A DNA stretch of 64,000 nt from an uncultured Candidatus Saccharibacteria bacterium (GCA_964483665.1 CAZACP010000004.1:7399-71398); one strand, 5' to 3'. Shown: positions 7,857 through 60,137, counted from the first letter of the stretch. A program made the numbers and translations. The notes: a model not told the origin generated them from the letters alone.

Positions 7857-7931
7857 TGGGGTGTCGCCAAGTGGTAAGGCAGCGCCCTTTGGAGGCGCCA
7901 TTCGTAGGTTCGAATCCTACCACCCCAGCCA
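7857..7931 (+). tRNA. tRNA-Gln (anticodon UUG)
   Basis: Cloverleaf with acceptor stem TGGGGTG/CACCCCA, a 3-bp D stem GCC...GGC, anticodon stem GCGCC/GGCGC with loop CTTTGGA, T arm GTAGG-TTCGAAT-CCTAC, discriminator G and encoded CCA. A TATAAT box sits at 7828-7833. Confidence 0.85.
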
Positions 7932-8025
7932 CGAAAAATGACTTTGTCATCTCGTGGCAGGCCAGCATACGCTTTTGGTATGATGATCTGCTATGAGAAA
8001 ATGATGAGGTCATTTTTCGTGAGCC
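7931..8025. repeat. 95-bp element bounded by perfect 13-bp inverted repeats CACGAAAAATGAC / GTCATTTTTCGTG, immediately 3' of tRNA-Gln
   Basis: The terminal inverted repeats are read directly from the sequence, and the internal sequence is unique. It lies at the tRNA / GIY-YIG junction. Confidence 0.5.
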
Positions 8026-8083
8026 CCGAGATTATCCACCCATGGTGGAGAATTTTTCGGGGCCACGGTATAATATAACTATG

Positions 8084-8341
8084 CATTATGTATATTTATT
8101 GGAATCCCAACAAGATAAATCATGGTATATAGGCCAAACGGATGACTTAAAAGCAAGAGTAGCCAGGCACAATGCGGGTAATGGAGCCAGAACCACCAGC
8201 CTTAAAACAAATTGGGAACTTATATACTATGAAGCCTATAAGACTAAGGCAGACGCCTTGGGTAGAGAGAAATTTTTGAAAAGTGGATCTGGCTACAAGT
8301 ATTTAAAAAAACAGTTAAAAAATTATTTAGAAATCAAATAA
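8084..8341 (+). CDS. GIY-YIG nuclease family protein (UPF0213/YhbQ-like, about 85 aa)
   Basis: MHYVYLLESQQDKSWYIGQTDDLKARVARHNAG...WELIYYEAYKTKADALGREKFLKSGSG. A TATAAT box is at 8069-8074. The start is moved to 8084 from the ORF-track start of 8042. Confidence 0.8.
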   Translation, partial: HYVYLLESQQDKSWYIGQTDDLKARVARHNAGNGARTTSLKTNWELIYYEAYKTKADALGREKFLKSGSGYKYLKKQLKNYLEIK

Positions 8342-8426
8342 TATAAGCAATAAACGGGTATGGGTCCCGCAAGGAACCAGCTGGCGTGGGGCTTTGTGTT
8401 TATAAAATTAATTTAACAAAAAAATT

Positions 8427-8678
8427 ATGGCTAATTCCTTAATACTAAACATATCTAAAAATCCTTCGTATACAACCCAGTCGTTACAAAACCCGGCAGC
8501 AAGTTATGACAAAACATTAGACTATTTGAATATTGCTTTGGCAGTAGCCGTAGCAATCGTTATATTTTTAATAATGCGTTTTATATTGCTTTGGTACTGG
8601 AAAATCAATGAAATTGTTAGTTTATTAACAGATATTAGAAATAACACCAATAAAAATGAACAAAAAACACAGTCTTAG
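8427..8678 (+). CDS. Hypothetical small membrane protein
   Basis: 83 aa with a single TM helix (LNIALAVAVAIVIFLIMRFILLWYW). Confidence 0.4.
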   Translation: MANSLILNISKNPSYTTQSLQNPAASYDKTLDYLNIALAVAVAIVIFLIMRFILLWYWKINEIVSLLTDIRNNTNKNEQKTQS

Positions 8679-8692
8679 GCTGTGTTTTTTTA
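8664..8692 (+). terminator. Rho-independent terminator
   Basis: acacag-tcttagg-ctgtgt followed by ttttttt. The stop codon lies in the loop. Confidence 0.55.
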
Positions 8693-8744
8693 AATTGACT
8701 TTATTTATGCAAAGTTTTAAACTAGTAGTGTAATTTATTTAGAT

Positions 8745-9410
8745 ATGAAACTAGAAAAAATCGTTATTGAATTAAGGTACAAAGATATAAACCCAATTTT
8801 TAATTGGAGGTCTTCTTTGTTTAAAGCATTAACAGGGACCAGGCCAACACAGGATGTTAGTTTAAATGAAGGTTTCGAATTAAAAATAGAAGATAAAAAA
8901 GCTTTACTGATTTTAGAACAAAGGAGGTGGGCTGTTGCTGTCGAAAATACAAGCAATGTTGAAGATGTTAAAAAATTTTTATACGAGCTATTTACTAAGA
9001 TTCATTCCGTAATTAACTGGGGTACAGGTTGTAGAATCGGTGTAAGAACAGTCTGGGTAAAAGAGTATGTTGGAACTCTGGAAAATCTAGTAAATAAAAT
9101 AAAAGAAGAAGTTTACAAAAACATTCCTATAGTTGATTCAGCTAAGGATATTGCTTTAAACTTGAGCCTTTCAAATCGTGAACATAAGGTAAATTATATT
9201 TTGGGACCAATGGAAAAGAAAGAGCCTACACACCAATATTTTCAAAATAAATCATTCGAAGAATTACCAAACGTATTTTTACTGCTTGACTTAGACTATT
9301 TTTTTGTTAAAAACCAAATTTATACCAAAAAATACTTTAAAGAGTTCGTCGAGGAAGCTATGAATTTTGCCTTGATTAAATCAAATGAAAGTGAGGGTTT
9401 GATTTTATGA
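8745..9410 (+). CDS. Hypothetical soluble protein (first gene of a 4-gene coupled cluster)
   Basis: 221 aa with no motif I recognise. Its stop overlaps the next start (ATGA at 9407-9410). Confidence 0.55.
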   Translation: MKLEKIVIELRYKDINPIFNWRSSLFKALTGTRPTQDVSLNEGFELKIEDKKALLILEQRRWAVAVENTSNVEDVKKFLYELFTKIHSVINWGTGCRIGVRTVWVKEYVGTLENLVNKIKEEVYKNIPIVDSAKDIALNLSLSNREHKVNYILGPMEKKEPTHQYFQNKSFEELPNVFLLLDLDYFFVKNQIYTKKYFKEFVEEAMNFALIKSNESEGLIL

Positions 9411-9730
9411 CAATGTATGGAACAACAACTTTTGAAGATTCTTTTATGGGTAGTACAGGAACCTCGCTCAAACTCCCAAAGAGAAAACAGTTCCAAGTTA
9501 AGAGTATAGATTTAGCTCTTAGATCAAGCAAAAGGGCATCCATAAGACCTTTGATAATTTTTAATTATTCAATGGTTGTTTTTTCAGTGTTCTTTGCAGT
9601 TGAATTTATTTTAGTTTTTTTTAGTAAAAGCATTATAAACGGATTTGTATCACTAAGCGCTTTAACAACAAGCTTGGGTTTATTTTGGGTTTTCAGAACT
9701 CTTCAAGCTGACTATGAAAAAAATGCGTAA
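9407..9730 (+). CDS. Hypothetical two-TM membrane protein
   Basis: 107 aa with overlapping, translationally coupled starts. Confidence 0.5.
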   Translation: MTMYGTTTFEDSFMGSTGTSLKLPKRKQFQVKSIDLALRSSKRASIRPLIIFNYSMVVFSVFFAVEFILVFFSKSIINGFVSLSALTTSLGLFWVFRTLQADYEKNA

Positions 9731-10028
9731 TTGGATTCCTAAAATTATTCGCGAATCAATTAAAGTGGAAAAAGAGACAAAGTACGGGCAGATGAATCAA
9801 AAGGCCGTATCGGCTGTAATTGTAGTTGTAATTATTTCATTAGTAGCTGGAATAACTTTCTCGTACACACCACTAAAAAACATAAATCCTCTAAATGGAT
9901 TTTCTTTTGCTTTAAATAGCGGAACACCATACGTGCTGGTAGCAATAATCCTAGTTTCAGCTTTTGTCTGTATGGGATTTCTTATGTACTGTAAAAATAA
10001 AGGTTGGATTAGCTCAAAAGATTTTTAG
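9714..10028 (+). CDS. Hypothetical two-TM membrane protein
   Basis: 104 aa overlapping the previous ORF by 17 nt. Confidence 0.5.
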   Translation: MKKMRNWIPKIIRESIKVEKETKYGQMNQKAVSAVIVVVIISLVAGITFSYTPLKNINPLNGFSFALNSGTPYVLVAIILVSAFVCMGFLMYCKNKGWISSKDF

Positions 10029-10060
10029 AATTAACAAGGATAAGAAAGTAAAGTGTTCTT

Positions 10061-10303
10061 ATGCAAAAATATTATATTGCTATTATAATAATTTTACTCC
10101 TTGGTTCTTTTTATTGGTTTGAATATAGACCAAATAAGATTAGAAAAGATTGTTTTGTCGTTGCCAAAGATTATAAAAATTCCATTACTAGGACTGAAAG
10201 TGATTTAATAATGGAAGGGTTTACAATAACTAAAAGAGCTGACTATGAGAAATTATTTGATGATAAATTTAAGGAATGTAAACTAGAACACGGGATTCAA
10301 TAA
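10061..10303 (+). CDS. Hypothetical single-TM membrane protein
   Basis: 80 aa with an N-terminal TM helix. Confidence 0.45.
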   Translation: MQKYYIAIIIILLLGSFYWFEYRPNKIRKDCFVVAKDYKNSITRTESDLIMEGFTITKRADYEKLFDDKFKECKLEHGIQ

Positions 10304-10397
10304 ATTATAAACCTTAAAAAGAACCATACTTTGACTAAAAATCATCAAAATAAAGGTGATTTTTTGTTTTATTTAAGAGGAATTTCATACATAGTAA

Positions 10398-10428
10398 TTG
10401 ACAAATAAGGCTAAATATGATATAATAT
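10398..10428 (+). promoter_or_regulatory. Consensus sigma-70 promoter TTGACA-N17-TATAAT
   Basis: ttgaca aataaggctaaatatga tataat. It drives the GC-rich ORF that starts at 10542. Confidence 0.55.
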
Positions 10429-10541
10429 TATGGTTATATAGACATTTTGTGGCACTTCTACCGGAGAGGGTTAATAAATCTTTTGCGGTGGGAGCGATAC
10501 AAAGTCCCAAAAATCAAAAACCATTCTATAGGAGAGATCCA

Positions 10542-10838
10542 ATGATCTATACGCCCCGTAGTGAAAGCACGAATCAGACTTGCACGATCATCAGATTCCG
10601 TGGCTTTATAATTTCTATTGCCATGGACGACCGTTCTCGTGGGGGCACAACTCCACTTACCCGATCTTCTCTGGCAGTCATCGAAGGCAAGGAGATCGTC
10701 ACGCACAGATTTGCAGGTCGTCATAACACCAATGACGGCTACATCGAAGAAGTGGAAGGCGAAACGCTGTTTGAAATTATGGCAGCGATTGCCGCAGTGA
10801 CGCAGCCCGAATCGGAGTTGGTCGCCAAGACTTCGTAA
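10542..10838 (+). CDS. Hypothetical protein (GC-rich orphan ORF, about 55% GC)
   Basis: RBS aggaga 7 nt before an ATG at 10542. The ORF-track start at 10398 coincides with the promoter -35 box, so I trimmed it. A hairpin gggcaag...cttgccc at 10886-10908 follows the gene. Confidence 0.4.
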   Translation: MIYTPRSESTNQTCTIIRFRGFIISIAMDDRSRGGTTPLTRSSLAVIEGKEIVTHRFAGRHNTNDGYIEEVEGETLFEIMAAIAAVTQPESELVAKTS

Positions 10839-11100
10839 AGAAATACAATCAGGCGTATCGCACATAAATCCAGTGACGAACTGGTGGGCAAGATGAACTT
10901 CTTGCCCCTTTACCTTAATTCATTAATAATTGTGGTTTGAGGTAAAGTTTTAAGCAAAACTGTTCCAACTTCGTCAAACAAGGCCAGCCAAAGAAAAGAC
11001 AGTAATCAATGATTGCAGTCTTTTCTTTGTTTATGACCGACTTGTACTTAAGCCTTGCTTTTAGAGCAATATTTTTTTGCCATATGTTATAATTAACACT

Positions 11101-57112: not shown

Positions 57113-59665
57113 TTAGAGCCCTCTTTCTACATCGGGCAAACCTTCGCTCATACTTTCCGCCACATTGCCGGCTTCCAACATTTCCGCCTCAACCTCGGAT
57201 CTGGGTCTGCCAAATTTAAGCCTCGAAAGTTGGCGGATGCTTTGCGCCAATTCCTCTGTGCCTGATTTTTGCGGCGGCATAGTTGCCATATTAAAGGGCT
57301 TGCTGGCCGTGCCGTTTACCATAAGCCTGACATAGGCGTTGTAACGGTCTATATTCACCAAATCAAACTGGTTAAAGGTAGGCGCAAACTCTTTACCCAA
57401 AACTTCGCTGTCTTCGGCGCCGGTTCTAAACACCACCATTGTCCCAACATTGCCGAACACTGCGTTTCGCAAGTCTTTACTGGCCGCGCCTTGAGCTCCG
57501 GCCTGAGTTTCCAGTTGCCCCAAATATTGGTGTGCGATGATGAGATTTAACTTATACTTTCTGGCCTCAGAAAGTATGGAAGCAAAGGCATCGGTTATAA
57601 AATTCTGGAACTCGTCTACATATAAATAAAAATCTTTTCTTTTTTCCTCCGGCACATCTGCGCGGGAAAGCGCGGCCATTTGGATTTTAGAAACTAGTAT
57701 AAGCCCGAGCAGCTTGGCGTTTATTTCACCCGTGCGGCCCTTAGACAAATTCACCAGCAAAACTTTGCCCTCGTCCATAACTTTCCTAAAATTAAAGCCG
57801 CTCTTGCTTTGGCCGACTATGTTGCGCATCATGGTATTTTCCACAAAACGCCCGACTTTGGAAATTAAATAGCCAAGCATTTCGCTTCTATGGAAGTCGG
57901 AGGTTTTTGCCATTTCCTTTTCCCAAAAAAGTTTTACCACCGGATCTTTTAGCTTTTCCACCTTATATTTCTGAAAATCTGTGTCCGTAAATATCCTCGG
58001 GATATCTGTAATAGTGCCGGGATGCTCTTCGTCCGCCATAAGCGTGAGCATTGCGTTGCGCATATTGTGTTCAAACATAGGACCAAGCATAGCAGGATCA
58101 GTAACTAATTTATAAAATATAGATATCATTTCCTGCACCGCAAAATCTTTTTGCTCTTCGCTGTCCACTTCCAGCATATTTAAGCCGAGTGGCCTGTCCA
58201 TATCAAACGGCTCAAAGACTATAATGTCCTCCGCCCGTTCTTTAGGCACATTTTGTAAAATATCCTGTATTAAATCCCCGTGAGGGTCAACCACGCACAA
58301 ACCTTCCCCATTTTTTATATCCTGAATGGCCATATTGGCAAGCAATACAGACTTGCCGCTGCCCGTGCGACCTAGCACGTAGGTGTGGCGCCTACGGTCT
58401 TCCCTGCCCATAAAAATTGGGGTCTCCACGCCTCTATAAATATTTTTACCAATTAACAAACCCTCTTTGTGAATATTTAAAGGCGGCGGGGCTTTTTTAG
58501 AAACCAGCCACTTAATGTTTGGCGTTTCAATATACGGCGTTGGCAAATGCCACAGGCTTGCCAGCTCTTCGGTATTTAAAACGGTTTTTAAGCCATAATC
58601 CCTAAAAACTCTAAAAATATAATCTTTAACTATTTCTTCCTTATTTCTTTTTTTGTGTTTAAAACCGTTAAATGGGGGCATATTATACTGCAAAAATGCG
58701 CCCATTAAATTACGCATATGGCTCTGAGCCTGGCCGGGTGTGGCAGATGAAGTTATAAGTCTGACATTAACTTTATACCCCGGACGGCTGGCTTTTTCTT
58801 CAAGTTTCTTTACTATTTCCTGCTGCATTGGGGTAAGCTGAATTGGCGAATAGTATCCGCTTAAATCTTTATGCTTATGCGACTGATTTTGTCCCCCGCC
58901 TTTTACCCCCGCGGCCATTCCGCCAAAGCCTTTAAGCAACCCCATAACCGCTCTGTAAAAATGCCCTTTTTCAACCAACTCCGGATTTTTCCCTTGCTGG
59001 ACTTCTAAAGCCATGTGCCTGGGTTTTCCCTGCCAGGCTGTGCCGGCCGGACTTAAAATAAACTGTACCGCTGCGCCCTCGTTTTCCAAAAGTTTACTCA
59101 TTGCATTGGTTATGGCATTAAGCGGGTCTGACTCCATAGTTTTGTAAGTACGGAAAGGATAAAAATATTTTTTGTTTAAAACTAATTCTTCCGCTTCCAC
59201 CTGCCCGCCTTTTTGGAATGGATTATAACCTTTTACCGCTTCTACAAAAGCATGCGGGTATTGTGCCTGCAATTGCTTTTCTACCAATTCCTGCAAATGC
59301 TTGGGGCAATTTATATAAAAGCTTATTTTTTTGTCTGTGCAAGCTATTTCAAAACTATAGTAGTCCTTACCCAAAAGCCAGCCTTTGCTGTGTCCGCTTT
59401 CAGAAAGCGTGGTAAACAGCTGTTCAGCTATGCCAATTAAATGTTTTTTTTCTTCTTCTGTCTTGGGCTTTTGCTGGTCTTTGTCTTCAGAGGATTCTTT
59501 AGGCATCTGAATTTCCAAAAACACCCACTCCATAGTCCTGGGAATAACATGGCCTAAGTGATAACGGTGGCGCTTGTAAAAATAAAAAAACACGGCCCCA
59601 AAGACAAACAAAAGGCCGACAAATACCAAAAGCACTATATTAAAAGTATTTATTTCAAAAGGCAT
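57113..59665 (-). CDS. TraD/TraG/VirD4-like (DUF87-type) membrane-anchored P-loop ATPase
   Basis: 850 aa with an N-terminal TM helix. Walker A GRTGSGKS is followed by CVVDPHGD. Walker B-like LYVDEFQNF is present. The long N-terminal domain is atypical. Confidence 0.5.
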   Translation of the reverse strand: MPFEINTFNIVLLVFVGLLFVFGAVFFYFYKRHRYHLGHVIPRTMEWVFLEIQMPKESSEDKDQQKPKTEEEKKHLIGIAEQLFTTLSESGHSKGWLLGKDYYSFEIACTDKKISFYINCPKHLQELVEKQLQAQYPHAFVEAVKGYNPFQKGGQVEAEELVLNKKYFYPFRTYKTMESDPLNAITNAMSKLLENEGAAVQFILSPAGTAWQGKPRHMALEVQQGKNPELVEKGHFYRAVMGLLKGFGGMAAGVKGGGQNQSHKHKDLSGYYSPIQLTPMQQEIVKKLEEKASRPGYKVNVRLITSSATPGQAQSHMRNLMGAFLQYNMPPFNGFKHKKRNKEEIVKDYIFRVFRDYGLKTVLNTEELASLWHLPTPYIETPNIKWLVSKKAPPPLNIHKEGLLIGKNIYRGVETPIFMGREDRRRHTYVLGRTGSGKSVLLANMAIQDIKNGEGLCVVDPHGDLIQDILQNVPKERAEDIIVFEPFDMDRPLGLNMLEVDSEEQKDFAVQEMISIFYKLVTDPAMLGPMFEHNMRNAMLTLMADEEHPGTITDIPRIFTDTDFQKYKVEKLKDPVVKLFWEKEMAKTSDFHRSEMLGYLISKVGRFVENTMMRNIVGQSKSGFNFRKVMDEGKVLLVNLSKGRTGEINAKLLGLILVSKIQMAALSRADVPEEKRKDFYLYVDEFQNFITDAFASILSEARKYKLNLIIAHQYLGQLETQAGAQGAASKDLRNAVFGNVGTMVVFRTGAEDSEVLGKEFAPTFNQFDLVNIDRYNAYVRLMVNGTASKPFNMATMPPQKSGTEELAQSIRQLSRLKFGRPRSEVEAEMLEAGNVAESMSEGLPDVERGL

Positions 59666-59697: not shown

Positions 59698-60048
59698 CTA
59701 CTGCTTTGTAACAAAGTTAGTCAATTCATAAGGGTCACCACCACTATTTTGAAGTTTGTGTAACAAATCATTAATTTTTTCTTTTGGGTCAGCAGCACTC
59801 ATAATAGCCGGATCAACATAACCCTCGGGCATATTAAGAATTTTCTCCCTTACTTCTACGGGCAAAACCCCGTTTGGCTGAGTTCCGCCTGTTTCCAACG
59901 ATAAATTTCCCTCTGATATCTTACTGGTTTCAGGGGAATTTTTCGCAGCCACTCTTTCCAAACTATCCTGATTGCCAACACCAAGCTTTTTTCTTACCTC
60001 CGGACTTAATCCACTTATTTCTTCCGGAGTTAAATTTAATTCAGCCAT
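59698..60048 (-). CDS. Hypothetical protein
   Basis: 116-aa hydrophilic ORF. Confidence 0.35.
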   Translation of the reverse strand: MAELNLTPEEISGLSPEVRKKLGVGNQDSLERVAAKNSPETSKISEGNLSLETGGTQPNGVLPVEVREKILNMPEGYVDPAIMSAADPKEKINDLLHKLQNSGGDPYELTNFVTKQ

Positions 60049-60137
60049 AAAATAATTTTATTATACTTATTTATTATACCACACATATAAAATGACCTAA
60101 TATTATAATATTTTTTTAGAATATTGTCAACATTAAG

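What the first reader, a model, noticed from the sequence alone, without database searches (positions are those of the whole stretch)
7931..10900. tRNA-Gln-adjacent accessory island with a tightly coupled five-gene cluster of unknown function
Directly 3' of tRNA-Gln there is an IR-bounded 95-bp element, then a GIY-YIG nuclease gene, then a small membrane ORF with its own terminator. After that comes a cluster spanning 8745-10303: a 221-aa soluble protein and three small TM proteins with overlapping starts (ATGA at 9407, a 17-nt overlap at 9714). Last is a GC-rich ORF driven by a perfect TTGACA-N17-TATAAT promoter. tRNA 3' ends are classic integration sites. The soluble-plus-membrane-protein architecture recalls abortive-infection or membrane-effector defence modules, but no domain is recognisable. 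I think this is the best candidate in the window for an undescribed system.
Basis: inference. Interest (0 to 1): 0.65.

Follow-up and report, generated by a model that had tools for sequence, protein, structure and literature searches.

The report
Undescribed three-gene TBP-fold/membrane cassette
Next to a tRNA-Gln gene in a candidate-phyla-radiation bacterium sits a sporadically distributed, translationally coupled three-gene cassette (a soluble TBP-fold protein plus two small membrane proteins) whose sister branch carries a PIN RNase toxin instead, so it is most likely an undescribed toxin-antitoxin or abortive-infection type module, but no function has been shown.

Summary
The unit is different from the one it proposed.

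**The conserved unit is three genes, not five.**
- A (221 aa, 8745-9410) is soluble. With a 73-sequence alignment it folds at pLDDT 95 into a tandem TBP-like fold.
- B (107 aa) and C (104 aa) are hairpin membrane proteins with two transmembrane helices each.
- The A-B-C order, with overlapping or abutting genes, recurs in eight independent contexts. One of these is an A-B fusion protein.
- The 80-aa gene D has no homolog in any other A-B-C locus sampled (its own family was not searched).

**The GC-rich gene is separate.** It is a mobile 98-aa gene (true start 10542). Most homologs examined have their own consensus promoter, and three lie on viral contigs.

**There is no sign of an integrated island.** tRNA-Gln, two hairpins and the start of the GIY-YIG gene are conserved in the nearest relative. 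No integrase or att repeat was found.

**A-B-C is accessory.** It is absent downstream of tRNA-Gln in 10 related genomes. The A family has only about 127 representatives among 1.84 billion proteins.

**A sister branch of A is coupled to a 161-aa protein and a PIN toxin.** This supports a conflict-module reading at about 0.4 confidence. No known defence, Pfam or NCBIfam family matches. Function is inferred, not shown.

The parts
7857..7931 (+). tRNA-Gln (anticodon UUG)
   Evidence: ARAGORN; Rfam tRNA at 64.4 bits. All 75 nt are identical in the Doudnabacteria locus L022.
7930..8063 (+). Two tandem hairpins directly after the tRNA: a 92-nt hairpin at 7930-8021 and a second at 8023-8063.
   Evidence: Inverted repeats I1, I2 and I4. 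Fold energy -60.3 kcal/mol, z = -9.2. Both hairpins are kept in L022, with one-sided changes that preserve pairing (GU/GC, UA/UG, UG/CG) and one AU-to-GC change in the long hairpin. No second copy in the window.
8081..8341 (+). Stand-alone GIY-YIG nuclease gene (86 aa; the ORF opens at 8042)
   Evidence: PF01541 at E = 1e-17. Gene callers use the 86-aa start. GIY-YIG genes also abut tRNA-Gln in L021, L030 and L022. A TATAAT box at 8069-8074 is conserved in L022.
8427..8690 (+). 83-aa ORF with one transmembrane segment (8427-8678) and a palindromic terminator-like hairpin (8662-8690)
   Evidence: Transmembrane segment at residues 29-61; hairpin. Only weak hits: PHROG 28494 at E = 7e-5 and BlyA holin at E = 0.03. 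No homolog in any other A-B-C locus.
8745..9410 (+). Gene A: soluble 221-aa protein with a tandem TBP-like fold; founding member of an unannotated family
9407..9730 (+). Gene B: 107-aa membrane protein with two transmembrane helices; its start overlaps A's stop codon (ATGA)
   Evidence: Hydrophobic segments at residues 46-86. Homologs directly follow A in L013, L014, L016 and L018, and a B-like gene follows A in L058. P0011 is an A-B fusion.
9714..10028 (+). Gene C: 104-aa membrane protein with two transmembrane helices (101 aa if it starts at 9723); it overlaps the end of B
   Evidence: Transmembrane segments at residues 26-55 and 63-95. Homologs follow B in L013, L014, L016, L018 and L058. 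Not detectably related to B.
10061..10303 (+). Gene D: 80-aa ORF with an N-terminal transmembrane segment; probably co-transcribed but not part of the conserved cassette
   Evidence: No homolog in any other A-B-C locus. In those loci other, unrelated genes follow C.
10398..10426 (+). Perfect sigma-70 promoter TTGACA-N17-TATAAT with a TG extension
   Evidence: 12/12 match. Two perfect matches in the window against 0.02 expected. Consensus promoters also precede homologs in L038, L041-L046.
10455..10494 (+). Conserved stem-loop in the 5' leader of the GC-rich gene
   Evidence: The outer helix is conserved, and the variable apical helix is self-complementary by inspection, in the window, L009, L010 and L040. 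No Rfam match.
10542..10838 (+). 98-aa GC-rich gene of unknown function (the 'MIYTPRS...IAMDD' family); an independent mobile gene
   Evidence: Homologs at 58-63% identity in the protein alignment, 65-69% in the database search. 10 metagenome loci and 3 IMG/VR viral contigs. Third-codon-position identity is 33-49% against 67-78% amino-acid identity, which indicates a coding gene. The gene is 49-53% GC inside flanks of 35-42% GC in three hosts.
10886..10907 (+). Terminator-like hairpin after the GC-rich gene
   Evidence: 8-bp stem with 5 GC pairs; the T-run is weak.

Best explanation
Genes A, B and C (8745-10028) form a mobile, translationally coupled conflict module of the toxin-antitoxin or abortive-infection type.

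**Proposed mechanism.**
- A is a cytoplasmic protein with two TBP-like repeats. A conserved set of Arg, Lys, Asp and Glu residues lies on its beta-strands, most plausibly on the face not covered by helices.
- A docks on the cytoplasmic N-terminus of B.
- A acts as the ligand-binding subunit, probably for a nucleic acid or nucleotide, and serves as sensor or regulator.
- B and C together contribute four transmembrane helices and form the membrane effector, a pore or depolarising complex.
- In the sister branch of the family, the same A module is coupled to a 161-aa protein and a PIN RNase toxin instead.

**What is shown.** The three-gene co-conservation, the gene overlaps, the A-B fusion, the fold, the sporadic distribution and the PIN-coupled branch.

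**What is inferred.** Ligand binding by A, toxicity of B and C, and any anti-phage role.

**What is not part of the module.** Gene D, the 83-aa ORF, the GIY-YIG gene and the GC-rich 98-aa gene are neighbours only.
For: 1. **Co-conservation.** A-B-C occurs in the same order, with overlapping or abutting genes, in the window, L013, L014/15, L016/17, L018 and L058. L048 has A followed by a B-like gene.
2. **Physical link.** P0011 (348 aa) is an A-B fusion: 39% identity to B of L013, E = 1e-8. A sits at the N-terminus, which is consistent with B's short basic C-terminal tail being cytoplasmic.
3. **Sister branch.** A homologs with the same conserved residues are followed, with a 4-nt overlap, by a 161/162-aa soluble protein and then a PIN-domain gene (PF01850, E = 5.5e-12). 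This is seen in three different genomic contexts.
4. **Sporadic distribution.**
   - Only 127 representatives exist among 1.84 billion clustered proteins.
   - A-B-C is absent downstream of tRNA-Gln in 10 related Patescibacteria genomes.
   - L021 has tRNA-Gln and the metallophosphoesterase gene 1.4 kb apart without it.
5. **Neighbours.**
   - A type II restriction-modification pair lies directly upstream in L013. The methyltransferase matches at E = 1.6e-98; the endonuclease match is weak, E = 1e-5.
   - A ThsA-like SIR2 gene (E = 1.4e-14) lies near the PIN-type triad in L049.
   - A DUF2726 gene abuts A in L014.
   - A terminase gene abuts the triad in L051.
   - One A-B-C triad lies on an IMG/VR contig.
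6. **Fold and precedent.** The model has pLDDT 95 and a tandem TBP-like fold. TBP-like domains are the substrate-binding modules of RNase HIII and of the RnlA toxin (PMC3710099, PMC8266594).
Against: - No member of A, B or C matches any PADLOC, Pfam or NCBIfam model consistently.
- No toxin domain is recognisable in B or C.
- In L018 the triad sits among housekeeping genes (uvrA, uvrC, ddl, a sigma factor).
- Known defence genes are neighbours in only about 2 of roughly 11 contexts. Only about 11 contexts could be sampled, so no enrichment statistic exists.
- The conserved acidic residues would fit an enzyme as well as a binding protein.
- No experiment of any kind exists.
Confidence: 0.4

Rival explanations
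1. A-B-C is a lineage-specific housekeeping membrane complex of Patescibacteria. One example would be a membrane-anchored nucleic-acid or ligand-binding device for uptake or envelope function. It would have no role in conflict, and its patchy distribution would reflect genome reduction and rearrangement.
For: - In L018 the triad sits among uvrA, uvrC, ddl and a sigma-factor gene.
- In the window and in L014 it lies in the same general neighbourhood: tRNA-Gln upstream and a NUDIX gene downstream.
- There are no defence-model hits.
- Synteny around tRNA-Gln is poor in this group generally.
Against: - The family is very small, 127 representatives at 50% clustering.
- It is absent from all 16 tRNA-Gln loci of GTDB relatives that were fetched.
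- The sister branch is wired to a PIN toxin in unrelated contexts.
- One copy lies on an IMG/VR contig.
Confidence: 0.2
2. A-B-C is a remnant phage lysis cassette. B and C would be holin and antiholin-like proteins with two transmembrane helices each, and A a cytoplasmic lytic enzyme of a new fold.
For: - B and C have the size, the two-helix hairpin topology and the short charged C-terminal tails typical of class II holins (the comparison with holins is from general knowledge).
- The neighbouring 83-aa ORF has weak BlyA-holin and PHROG hits.
- One triad lies on an IMG/VR contig.
- A has conserved acidic residues.
Against: - No muralytic domain or fold was found.
- There are no PHROG hits for A, B or C below E = 0.01.
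- There are no tblastn hits in 50,697 phage genomes.
- No other phage genes lie at the window locus.
- The PIN-coupled sister branch does not fit an endolysin role for A.
Confidence: 0.08
3. The whole interval 7931-10900 is one genomic island that integrated at the 3' end of tRNA-Gln and works as a single five-gene system.
For: - The position is directly 3' of a tRNA.
- GC is 31% against a window mean of 39%.
- Content between tRNA-Gln and the metallophosphoesterase gene varies among relatives.
Against: - No integrase, and no direct repeat of the tRNA 3' end.
- tRNA-Gln, both hairpins and the start of the GIY-YIG gene are conserved together in L022.
- D and the GC-rich gene never accompany A-B-C elsewhere.
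- The GC-rich gene has an independent promoter, a different base composition and a different set of host contigs.
Confidence: 0.05

Closest known systems
RnlA-RnlB / LsoA-LsoB toxin-antitoxin and anti-phage systems
   Same: Two TBP-like domains are associated with an RNase toxin in a small mobile operon. In RnlA the TBP-like domains serve substrate binding (PMC8266594, PMC3710099). The PIN-type branch of the A family has the same logic, with a tandem TBP-like module plus an RNase toxin.
   Different: - In RnlA the TBP-like domains are fused to a HEPN RNase in one polypeptide. Here A is a separate protein.
- The toxin here is PIN in the sister branch, or two membrane proteins in the window.
Lambda RexA-RexB abortive-infection pair, and membrane-effector abortive-infection systems in general (comparison from general knowledge)
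   Same: A soluble cytoplasmic partner is encoded next to a small polytopic membrane effector. B and C together give four transmembrane helices, and the genes are tightly coupled.
   Different: No homology was tested or found. There are two separate two-helix proteins rather than one four-helix protein. Neither activation nor depolarisation has been shown.
Three-component toxin-antitoxin operons such as omega-epsilon-zeta or toxin-antitoxin-chaperone systems (comparison from general knowledge)
   Same: A three-gene, translationally coupled operon in which a third protein precedes the antitoxin-toxin pair. The A, 161-aa protein, PIN order in L049, L051 and L054 fits this layout.
   Different: A is unrelated to the omega repressor or to SecB-like chaperones. 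The 161-aa partner has no recognised antitoxin domain.
TIGR04255 family (NCBIfam, uncharacterised and sporadically distributed)
   Same: Similar length. Two of the 73 A-family members give weak hits, best E = 8e-4.
   Different: The window protein gives no hit, and 71 of 73 members do not match. All scores are far below any trusted cut-off. No paper in the library mentions the family.
TATA-box-binding protein / TBP-domain superfamily
   Same: Tandem repeats of a beta-alpha-beta(3-4)-alpha unit form one curved antiparallel sheet. Foldseek probability is 0.97-0.99.

Membership tests
Known anti-phage defence systems (PADLOC-DB v2) | At least one protein matches a system HMM | tested here: not met
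   A, B, C, D, the 83-aa ORF and the GC-rich ORF give no significant hit. Among 73 A-family members there are only two isolated single-member hits.
Toxin-antitoxin / abortive-infection modules (generic) | Small, tightly coupled operon with sporadic, mobile distribution | tested here: met
   Gene overlaps are conserved in 7 loci. The genomic contexts are all different. The cassette is absent from the relatives' tRNA-Gln loci.
Toxin-antitoxin / abortive-infection modules (generic) | A recognisable toxin or effector domain | tested here: inconclusive
   A PIN domain (E = 5.5e-12) is present in the sister branch only. B and C have no recognised domain.
Toxin-antitoxin / abortive-infection modules (generic) | Toxicity that is neutralised by the partner; protection against phage | not testable with these tools
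   Requires expression and phage-challenge experiments.
tRNA-integrated genomic island | Integrase gene, and a direct repeat of the tRNA 3' end at the far boundary | tested here: not met
   The ORFs in 7931-11100 that were scanned against Pfam gave no integrase domain. The tRNA 3' 24-mer occurs only once even with up to 3 mismatches allowed. There are no long direct repeats.
tRNA-integrated genomic island | Variable presence at the same locus in relatives | tested here: met
   L021 has tRNA-Gln, then 1.4 kb, then the metallophosphoesterase gene, without A-B-C. Nine further loci also lack it. However, tRNA-Gln, the hairpins and the start of the GIY-YIG gene are conserved in L022.
TIGR04255 family | Score above the NCBIfam cut-off | tested here: not met
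   No hit for the window protein even at E up to 1. Two of 73 relatives hit weakly.
TBP-domain fold | Tandem alpha/beta repeats forming a saddle-like sheet, with significant structural matches to TBP | tested here: met
Phage holin-endolysin lysis cassette | A muralytic enzyme next to a holin, within a phage late region | tested here: not met
   There is no muralytic domain or fold in A, no significant PHROG hits and no phage genes at the locus.
GIY-YIG nuclease superfamily (gene at 8081-8341) | Match to PF01541 above the gathering score | tested here: met
   64.6 bits against a cut-off of 22.6, E = 1e-17.
Rfam RNA families (GC-rich region and leader) | Covariance-model match | tested here: not met
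   Only the tRNA passes. Nothing in 10430-10910 scores better than E = 2.6. The region is protein-coding.

The most novel reading that the evidence does not exclude
The A family would be a previously unrecognised TBP-fold sensor module that couples to interchangeable effectors, either a PIN RNase or a B/C membrane pore. That would define a new family of abortive-infection or toxin-antitoxin systems. Most sampled members look like Patescibacteria (CPR), a group in which defence systems other than restriction-modification are thought to be scarce (general knowledge, not checked here).
Probability: 0.3. Interest if true: 0.7.

Novelty: new variant of a known kind. Interest (0 to 1): 0.5.

Why it matters
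**If A-B-C and its PIN-coupled sister are conflict modules**
- They add a new sensor fold family, with no Pfam or NCBIfam model, to the repertoire of toxin-antitoxin and abortive-infection systems.
- They do so in CPR bacteria. The immune repertoire of these bacteria is poorly known, and their episymbiotic lifestyle makes membrane-targeting effectors interesting.
- The pairing of one conserved soluble module with two unrelated effector types is a clean and testable case of effector swapping.

**If instead the cassette is a housekeeping membrane complex**
- It is a small lineage-specific curiosity.

**Usable results in either case**
- A high-confidence structural model and a 127-member family definition now exist for a protein that had no annotation.
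- The finding is corrected from 'five-gene island' to 'three-gene cassette plus unrelated neighbours'.

Tried and rejected
**The GC-rich region as a structured non-coding RNA.**
- The + strand folds with z = -4.8 against -0.8 for the - strand, and there are long ORFs on both strands.
- Rejected. Homologs conserve the protein from the same ATG. Third codon positions diverge far more than the amino acids. There is no Rfam hit.

**A single-sequence AF2 model of A.** It was useless, with pLDDT 45. The alignment-based model was used instead.

**The word-indexed protein search for A.** It found only A itself. The exhaustive HMMER search was needed.

**The search for related loci with A-family alignments.** A broad context census was therefore not possible. 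Contexts come from 12 single look-ups plus viral scans.

**The afdb50 fold library.** It was unavailable.

**Sequence searches that found nothing.**
- The profile search against PDB sequences gave nothing for A or for the 98-aa family.
- tblastn of A, a PIN-type A (P0100), the 98-aa protein and its viral homolog against annotated phages or plasmids gave no match.

**L057, a 'viral' hit to A.** It is spurious by HMM.

**B and C as paralogs.** Rejected by hhalign, probability 0.1%.

**The hairpin element as a repeated MITE.** There is no other copy in the window. It is conserved in place in L022.


Full report
**Observation.**

- tRNA-Gln(UUG) is at 7857-7931.
- The '95-bp IR-bounded element' is a near-perfect 92-nt hairpin at 7930-8021, with -60 kcal/mol and z = -9.2. 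A second hairpin follows at 8023-8063.
- The GIY-YIG gene matches PF01541 at E = 1e-17. Its most likely start is 8081.
- The 83-aa ORF has one transmembrane segment and ends in a palindromic T-flanked hairpin.
- A (8745-9410) and B (9407-9730) overlap by ATGA.
- B and C overlap by 17 nt, or by 8 nt if C starts at 9723.
- The promoter at 10398-10426 is a 12/12 match. It is one of two in the window where 0.02 are expected.
- The GC-rich ORF is real, but it starts at ATG 10542 behind an AGGAG, giving 98 aa.

**The organism.**

- The window has about 39% GC.
- Its tRNA-Gln pattern recurs in 16 species-representative genomes, nearly all labelled Patescibacteria, either Doudnabacteria or 'Saccharibacteria'.
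- The best penicillin-binding-protein match is 59% identity to a Doudnabacteria MAG, L022.
- The contigs that carry A's exact sequence are all identical or near-identical (at least 99.96% DNA identity) to the window, so they give no comparative signal.

**What is conserved, and with what.**

A has no hit in Pfam, NCBIfam, PADLOC or PHROGs. The word-indexed search found only A itself. Exhaustive HMMER against 1.84 billion representatives found 127 relatives, almost all 215-240 aa.

Context look-ups show that A is followed by homologs of B and C, in the same order and with overlapping or abutting genes. This holds in:
- L013, L014/15 (where the gene caller missed B), L016/17 and L018;
- L058, a 35-kb IMG/VR contig that carries a divergent triad.

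L048 shows A followed by a B-like gene. P0011 is a 348-aa A-B fusion.

Gene D and the 83-aa ORF have no counterpart in any of these loci. The conserved unit is therefore A-B-C.

**Structure of A.**

With a 73-sequence alignment, AlphaFold2 gives pLDDT 95.3 and pTM 0.90. The strand and helix order repeats twice, beta-alpha-beta3-alpha then beta-alpha-beta3-alpha, which is a tandem TBP-like arrangement.
- Foldseek's best PDB hits are TBPs: E = 5e-4, probability 0.97-0.99, but TM-score only about 0.3.
- No close solved relative exists.
- The near-invariant residues E9, R97, G99, R101, D135, G154, D182 and D184 lie on or next to strands, and they alternate along those strands. I infer that they line one face of the sheet, which would be a polar ligand or catalytic site. 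Coordinates could not be inspected, so this is inference.
- The link to TIGR04255 is weak, with 2 of 73 members hitting and a best E of 8e-4.

**B and C.**

Each has two hydrophobic helices and a short charged tail. They are not detectably related to each other. In the fusion protein A lies N-terminal to B, so B's N-terminus is cytoplasmic.

**A second branch with a different partner set.**

More distant A homologs keep the same conserved residues. They are followed, with a 4-nt overlap, by a soluble 161/162-aa protein and then a PIN-domain protein (PF01850, E = 5.5e-12).

This arrangement appears in three unrelated contexts:
- next to a ThsA-like SIR2 gene (L049);
- next to a terminase gene (L051);
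- next to a methyltransferase gene (L054).

A BLAST-based split of the family puts about 88 members nearer the A-B-C references and about 24 nearer the PIN references. One soluble module is therefore wired to two unrelated outputs, one of which is a classic toxin.

TBP-like domains are substrate-binding modules in RNase HIII and in the RnlA toxin (PMC3710099, PMC8266594). That gives a precedent for a pairing of a TBP-like domain with an RNase toxin.

**Accessory or core.**

None of the 16 relatives' tRNA-Gln loci contains A, B or C. Ten of these loci have at least 2.5 kb downstream of the tRNA.

L021 keeps tRNA-Gln and a 46%-identical metallophosphoesterase only 1.4 kb apart, with other small ORFs between them. 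L014, by contrast, has tRNA-Gln, then two other genes, then A-B-C, then a NUDIX gene. That resembles the window.

The 'island' framing still fails.
- There is no integrase and no att-like repeat.
- tRNA-Gln, both hairpins, a conserved TATAAT box and the start of the GIY-YIG gene are shared with L022. The alignment averages 87% identity, and the hairpin arms are 92-96% identical, with changes that preserve pairing.
- GIY-YIG genes also abut tRNA-Gln in L021 and L030.

**The fifth gene.**

- The 98-aa protein has homologs at 58-63% identity in the protein alignment (65-69% in the database search) on contigs of 51-54% GC. It also has 10 metagenome loci and three more distant homologs on IMG/VR contigs of 81-88 kb.
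- Amino-acid identity is 67-78%, but third-position identity is only 33-49%. This shows selection on a protein. I therefore dropped my initial non-coding-RNA idea, which had come from the asymmetric fold z-scores.
- In three low-GC hosts the gene is 10-15 points richer in GC than its flanks.
- Most homologs examined carry their own consensus TTGACA-17-TATAAT or TATACT promoter.
- Four share a leader stem-loop.
- No Pfam, PHROG or PDB match exists.
- It is an independent, horizontally moving, strongly expressed small gene. Its function is unknown.

**Interpretation.**

The best-supported reading, at confidence about 0.4, is that A-B-C is a mobile conflict module. A would be the cytoplasmic ligand-binding sensor or regulator docked on B, and B and C would be the membrane effector. 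It would parallel the PIN-coupled branch.

Support beyond the architecture is contextual:
- a type II restriction-modification pair directly upstream in L013, and SIR2 near the triad in L049;
- DUF2726, terminase, and one IMG/VR contig.

Against this reading:
- there are no known-system hits;
- one context is housekeeping (L018);
- only about 11 contexts were sampled;
- there is no experiment.

The rivals are a lineage-specific housekeeping membrane complex (0.2), a lysis-cassette remnant (0.08) and the original five-gene tRNA island (0.05).

**Novelty and score.**

No homology places this in a described system. By architecture it is a new variant of the toxin-antitoxin or abortive-infection kind.

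Interest is 0.5. It is a clean, well-defined candidate with a confident structure and an effector-swap signature, in a phylum whose defence repertoire is poorly known. Candidate systems of this type are numerous, however, and function here is wholly inferred.

Noticed in passing
window 7930-8063; L022 7830-7959: Two tandem hairpins directly follow tRNA-Gln: a 92-nt near-perfect hairpin (z = -9.2) and a second shorter one. Both are conserved in a Doudnabacteria MAG, with arm identity of 92-96% and pair-preserving changes, although the penicillin-binding proteins of the two genomes are only 59% identical. This could be a conserved tRNA 3'-trailer, a terminator, or a mobile-element end.
   Followed up: partly
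window 8069-8341; L021 589-840; L030 278-568; L022 7963-8000: A small stand-alone GIY-YIG gene abuts tRNA-Gln in four different Patescibacteria genomes, upstream of the tRNA in two and downstream in two. In the window and in L022 a conserved TATAAT box lies 6 nt before the ATG, which suggests a leaderless mRNA.
   Followed up: partly
window 10433-10541; L009 8992-9085; L010 2576-2663; L040 868-966: The 5' leader of the 98-aa gene has a conserved outer helix (ACUUCYACC paired with GGYGGGRG). It encloses an apical helix that varies in sequence but is self-complementary by inspection. A conserved GYGA...UCC AAAWUCA stretch follows. There is no Rfam match. It may be a cis-regulatory RNA, but only four sequences are available.
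   Followed up: partly
L038/L039, L041-L046, L037 (upstream of the 98-aa gene homologs): Most homologs of the 98-aa gene that were examined, in hosts of 38-55% GC and on IMG/VR contigs, carry their own near-consensus TTGACA-N17-TATAAT or TATACT promoter. This is a pattern typical of highly expressed mobile or phage early genes.
   Followed up: partly
L049 6001-7556; L051 4629-6187; L054 1647-3202: A conserved triad of an A-family protein (225 aa), a 161/162-aa soluble protein of unknown family and a PIN-domain protein (129 aa) occurs in three unrelated contexts. It appears to be an undescribed three-component PIN toxin-antitoxin-like operon.
   Followed up: partly
P0011 (348 aa, metagenomic): This is a fusion of the A domain with a B-like two-helix membrane domain in one polypeptide. 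It could be a true fusion, or a frameshift across the overlapping A and B genes.
   Followed up: partly
L058 1891-3485 (IMGVR_UViG_3300037502_003275, 35 kb): A divergent A-B-C triad lies on a contig that IMG/VR classifies as viral. An ORF that by eye resembles a PD-(D/E)xK / HsdR-N-terminal-like nuclease is upstream, and a 369-aa ORF that by eye resembles a replication initiator is downstream; neither was scanned against a family library. Whether the contig is really viral was not verified.
   Followed up: no
window 10458-10865 (- strand) and 10398-10541 (+ strand): A 135-aa antisense ORF and the 48-codon upstream extension of the GC-rich ORF are most likely artefacts of stop-codon paucity in a GC-rich stretch of an AT-rich genome. 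Only the frame starting at 10542 is conserved.
   Followed up: yes
window 60102-60130 (- strand): This is the only other perfect TTGACA-N17-TATAAT promoter in the window. It lies upstream of a 116-aa ORF (59698-60048) and an 850-aa ORF (57113-59665) with a GRTGSGKS Walker A motif.
   Followed up: no
window 8427-8678: The 83-aa single-transmembrane ORF has weak similarity to PHROG 28494 (E = 7e-5) and to BlyA-family holins (E = 0.03). It has no counterpart in the related loci.
   Followed up: no
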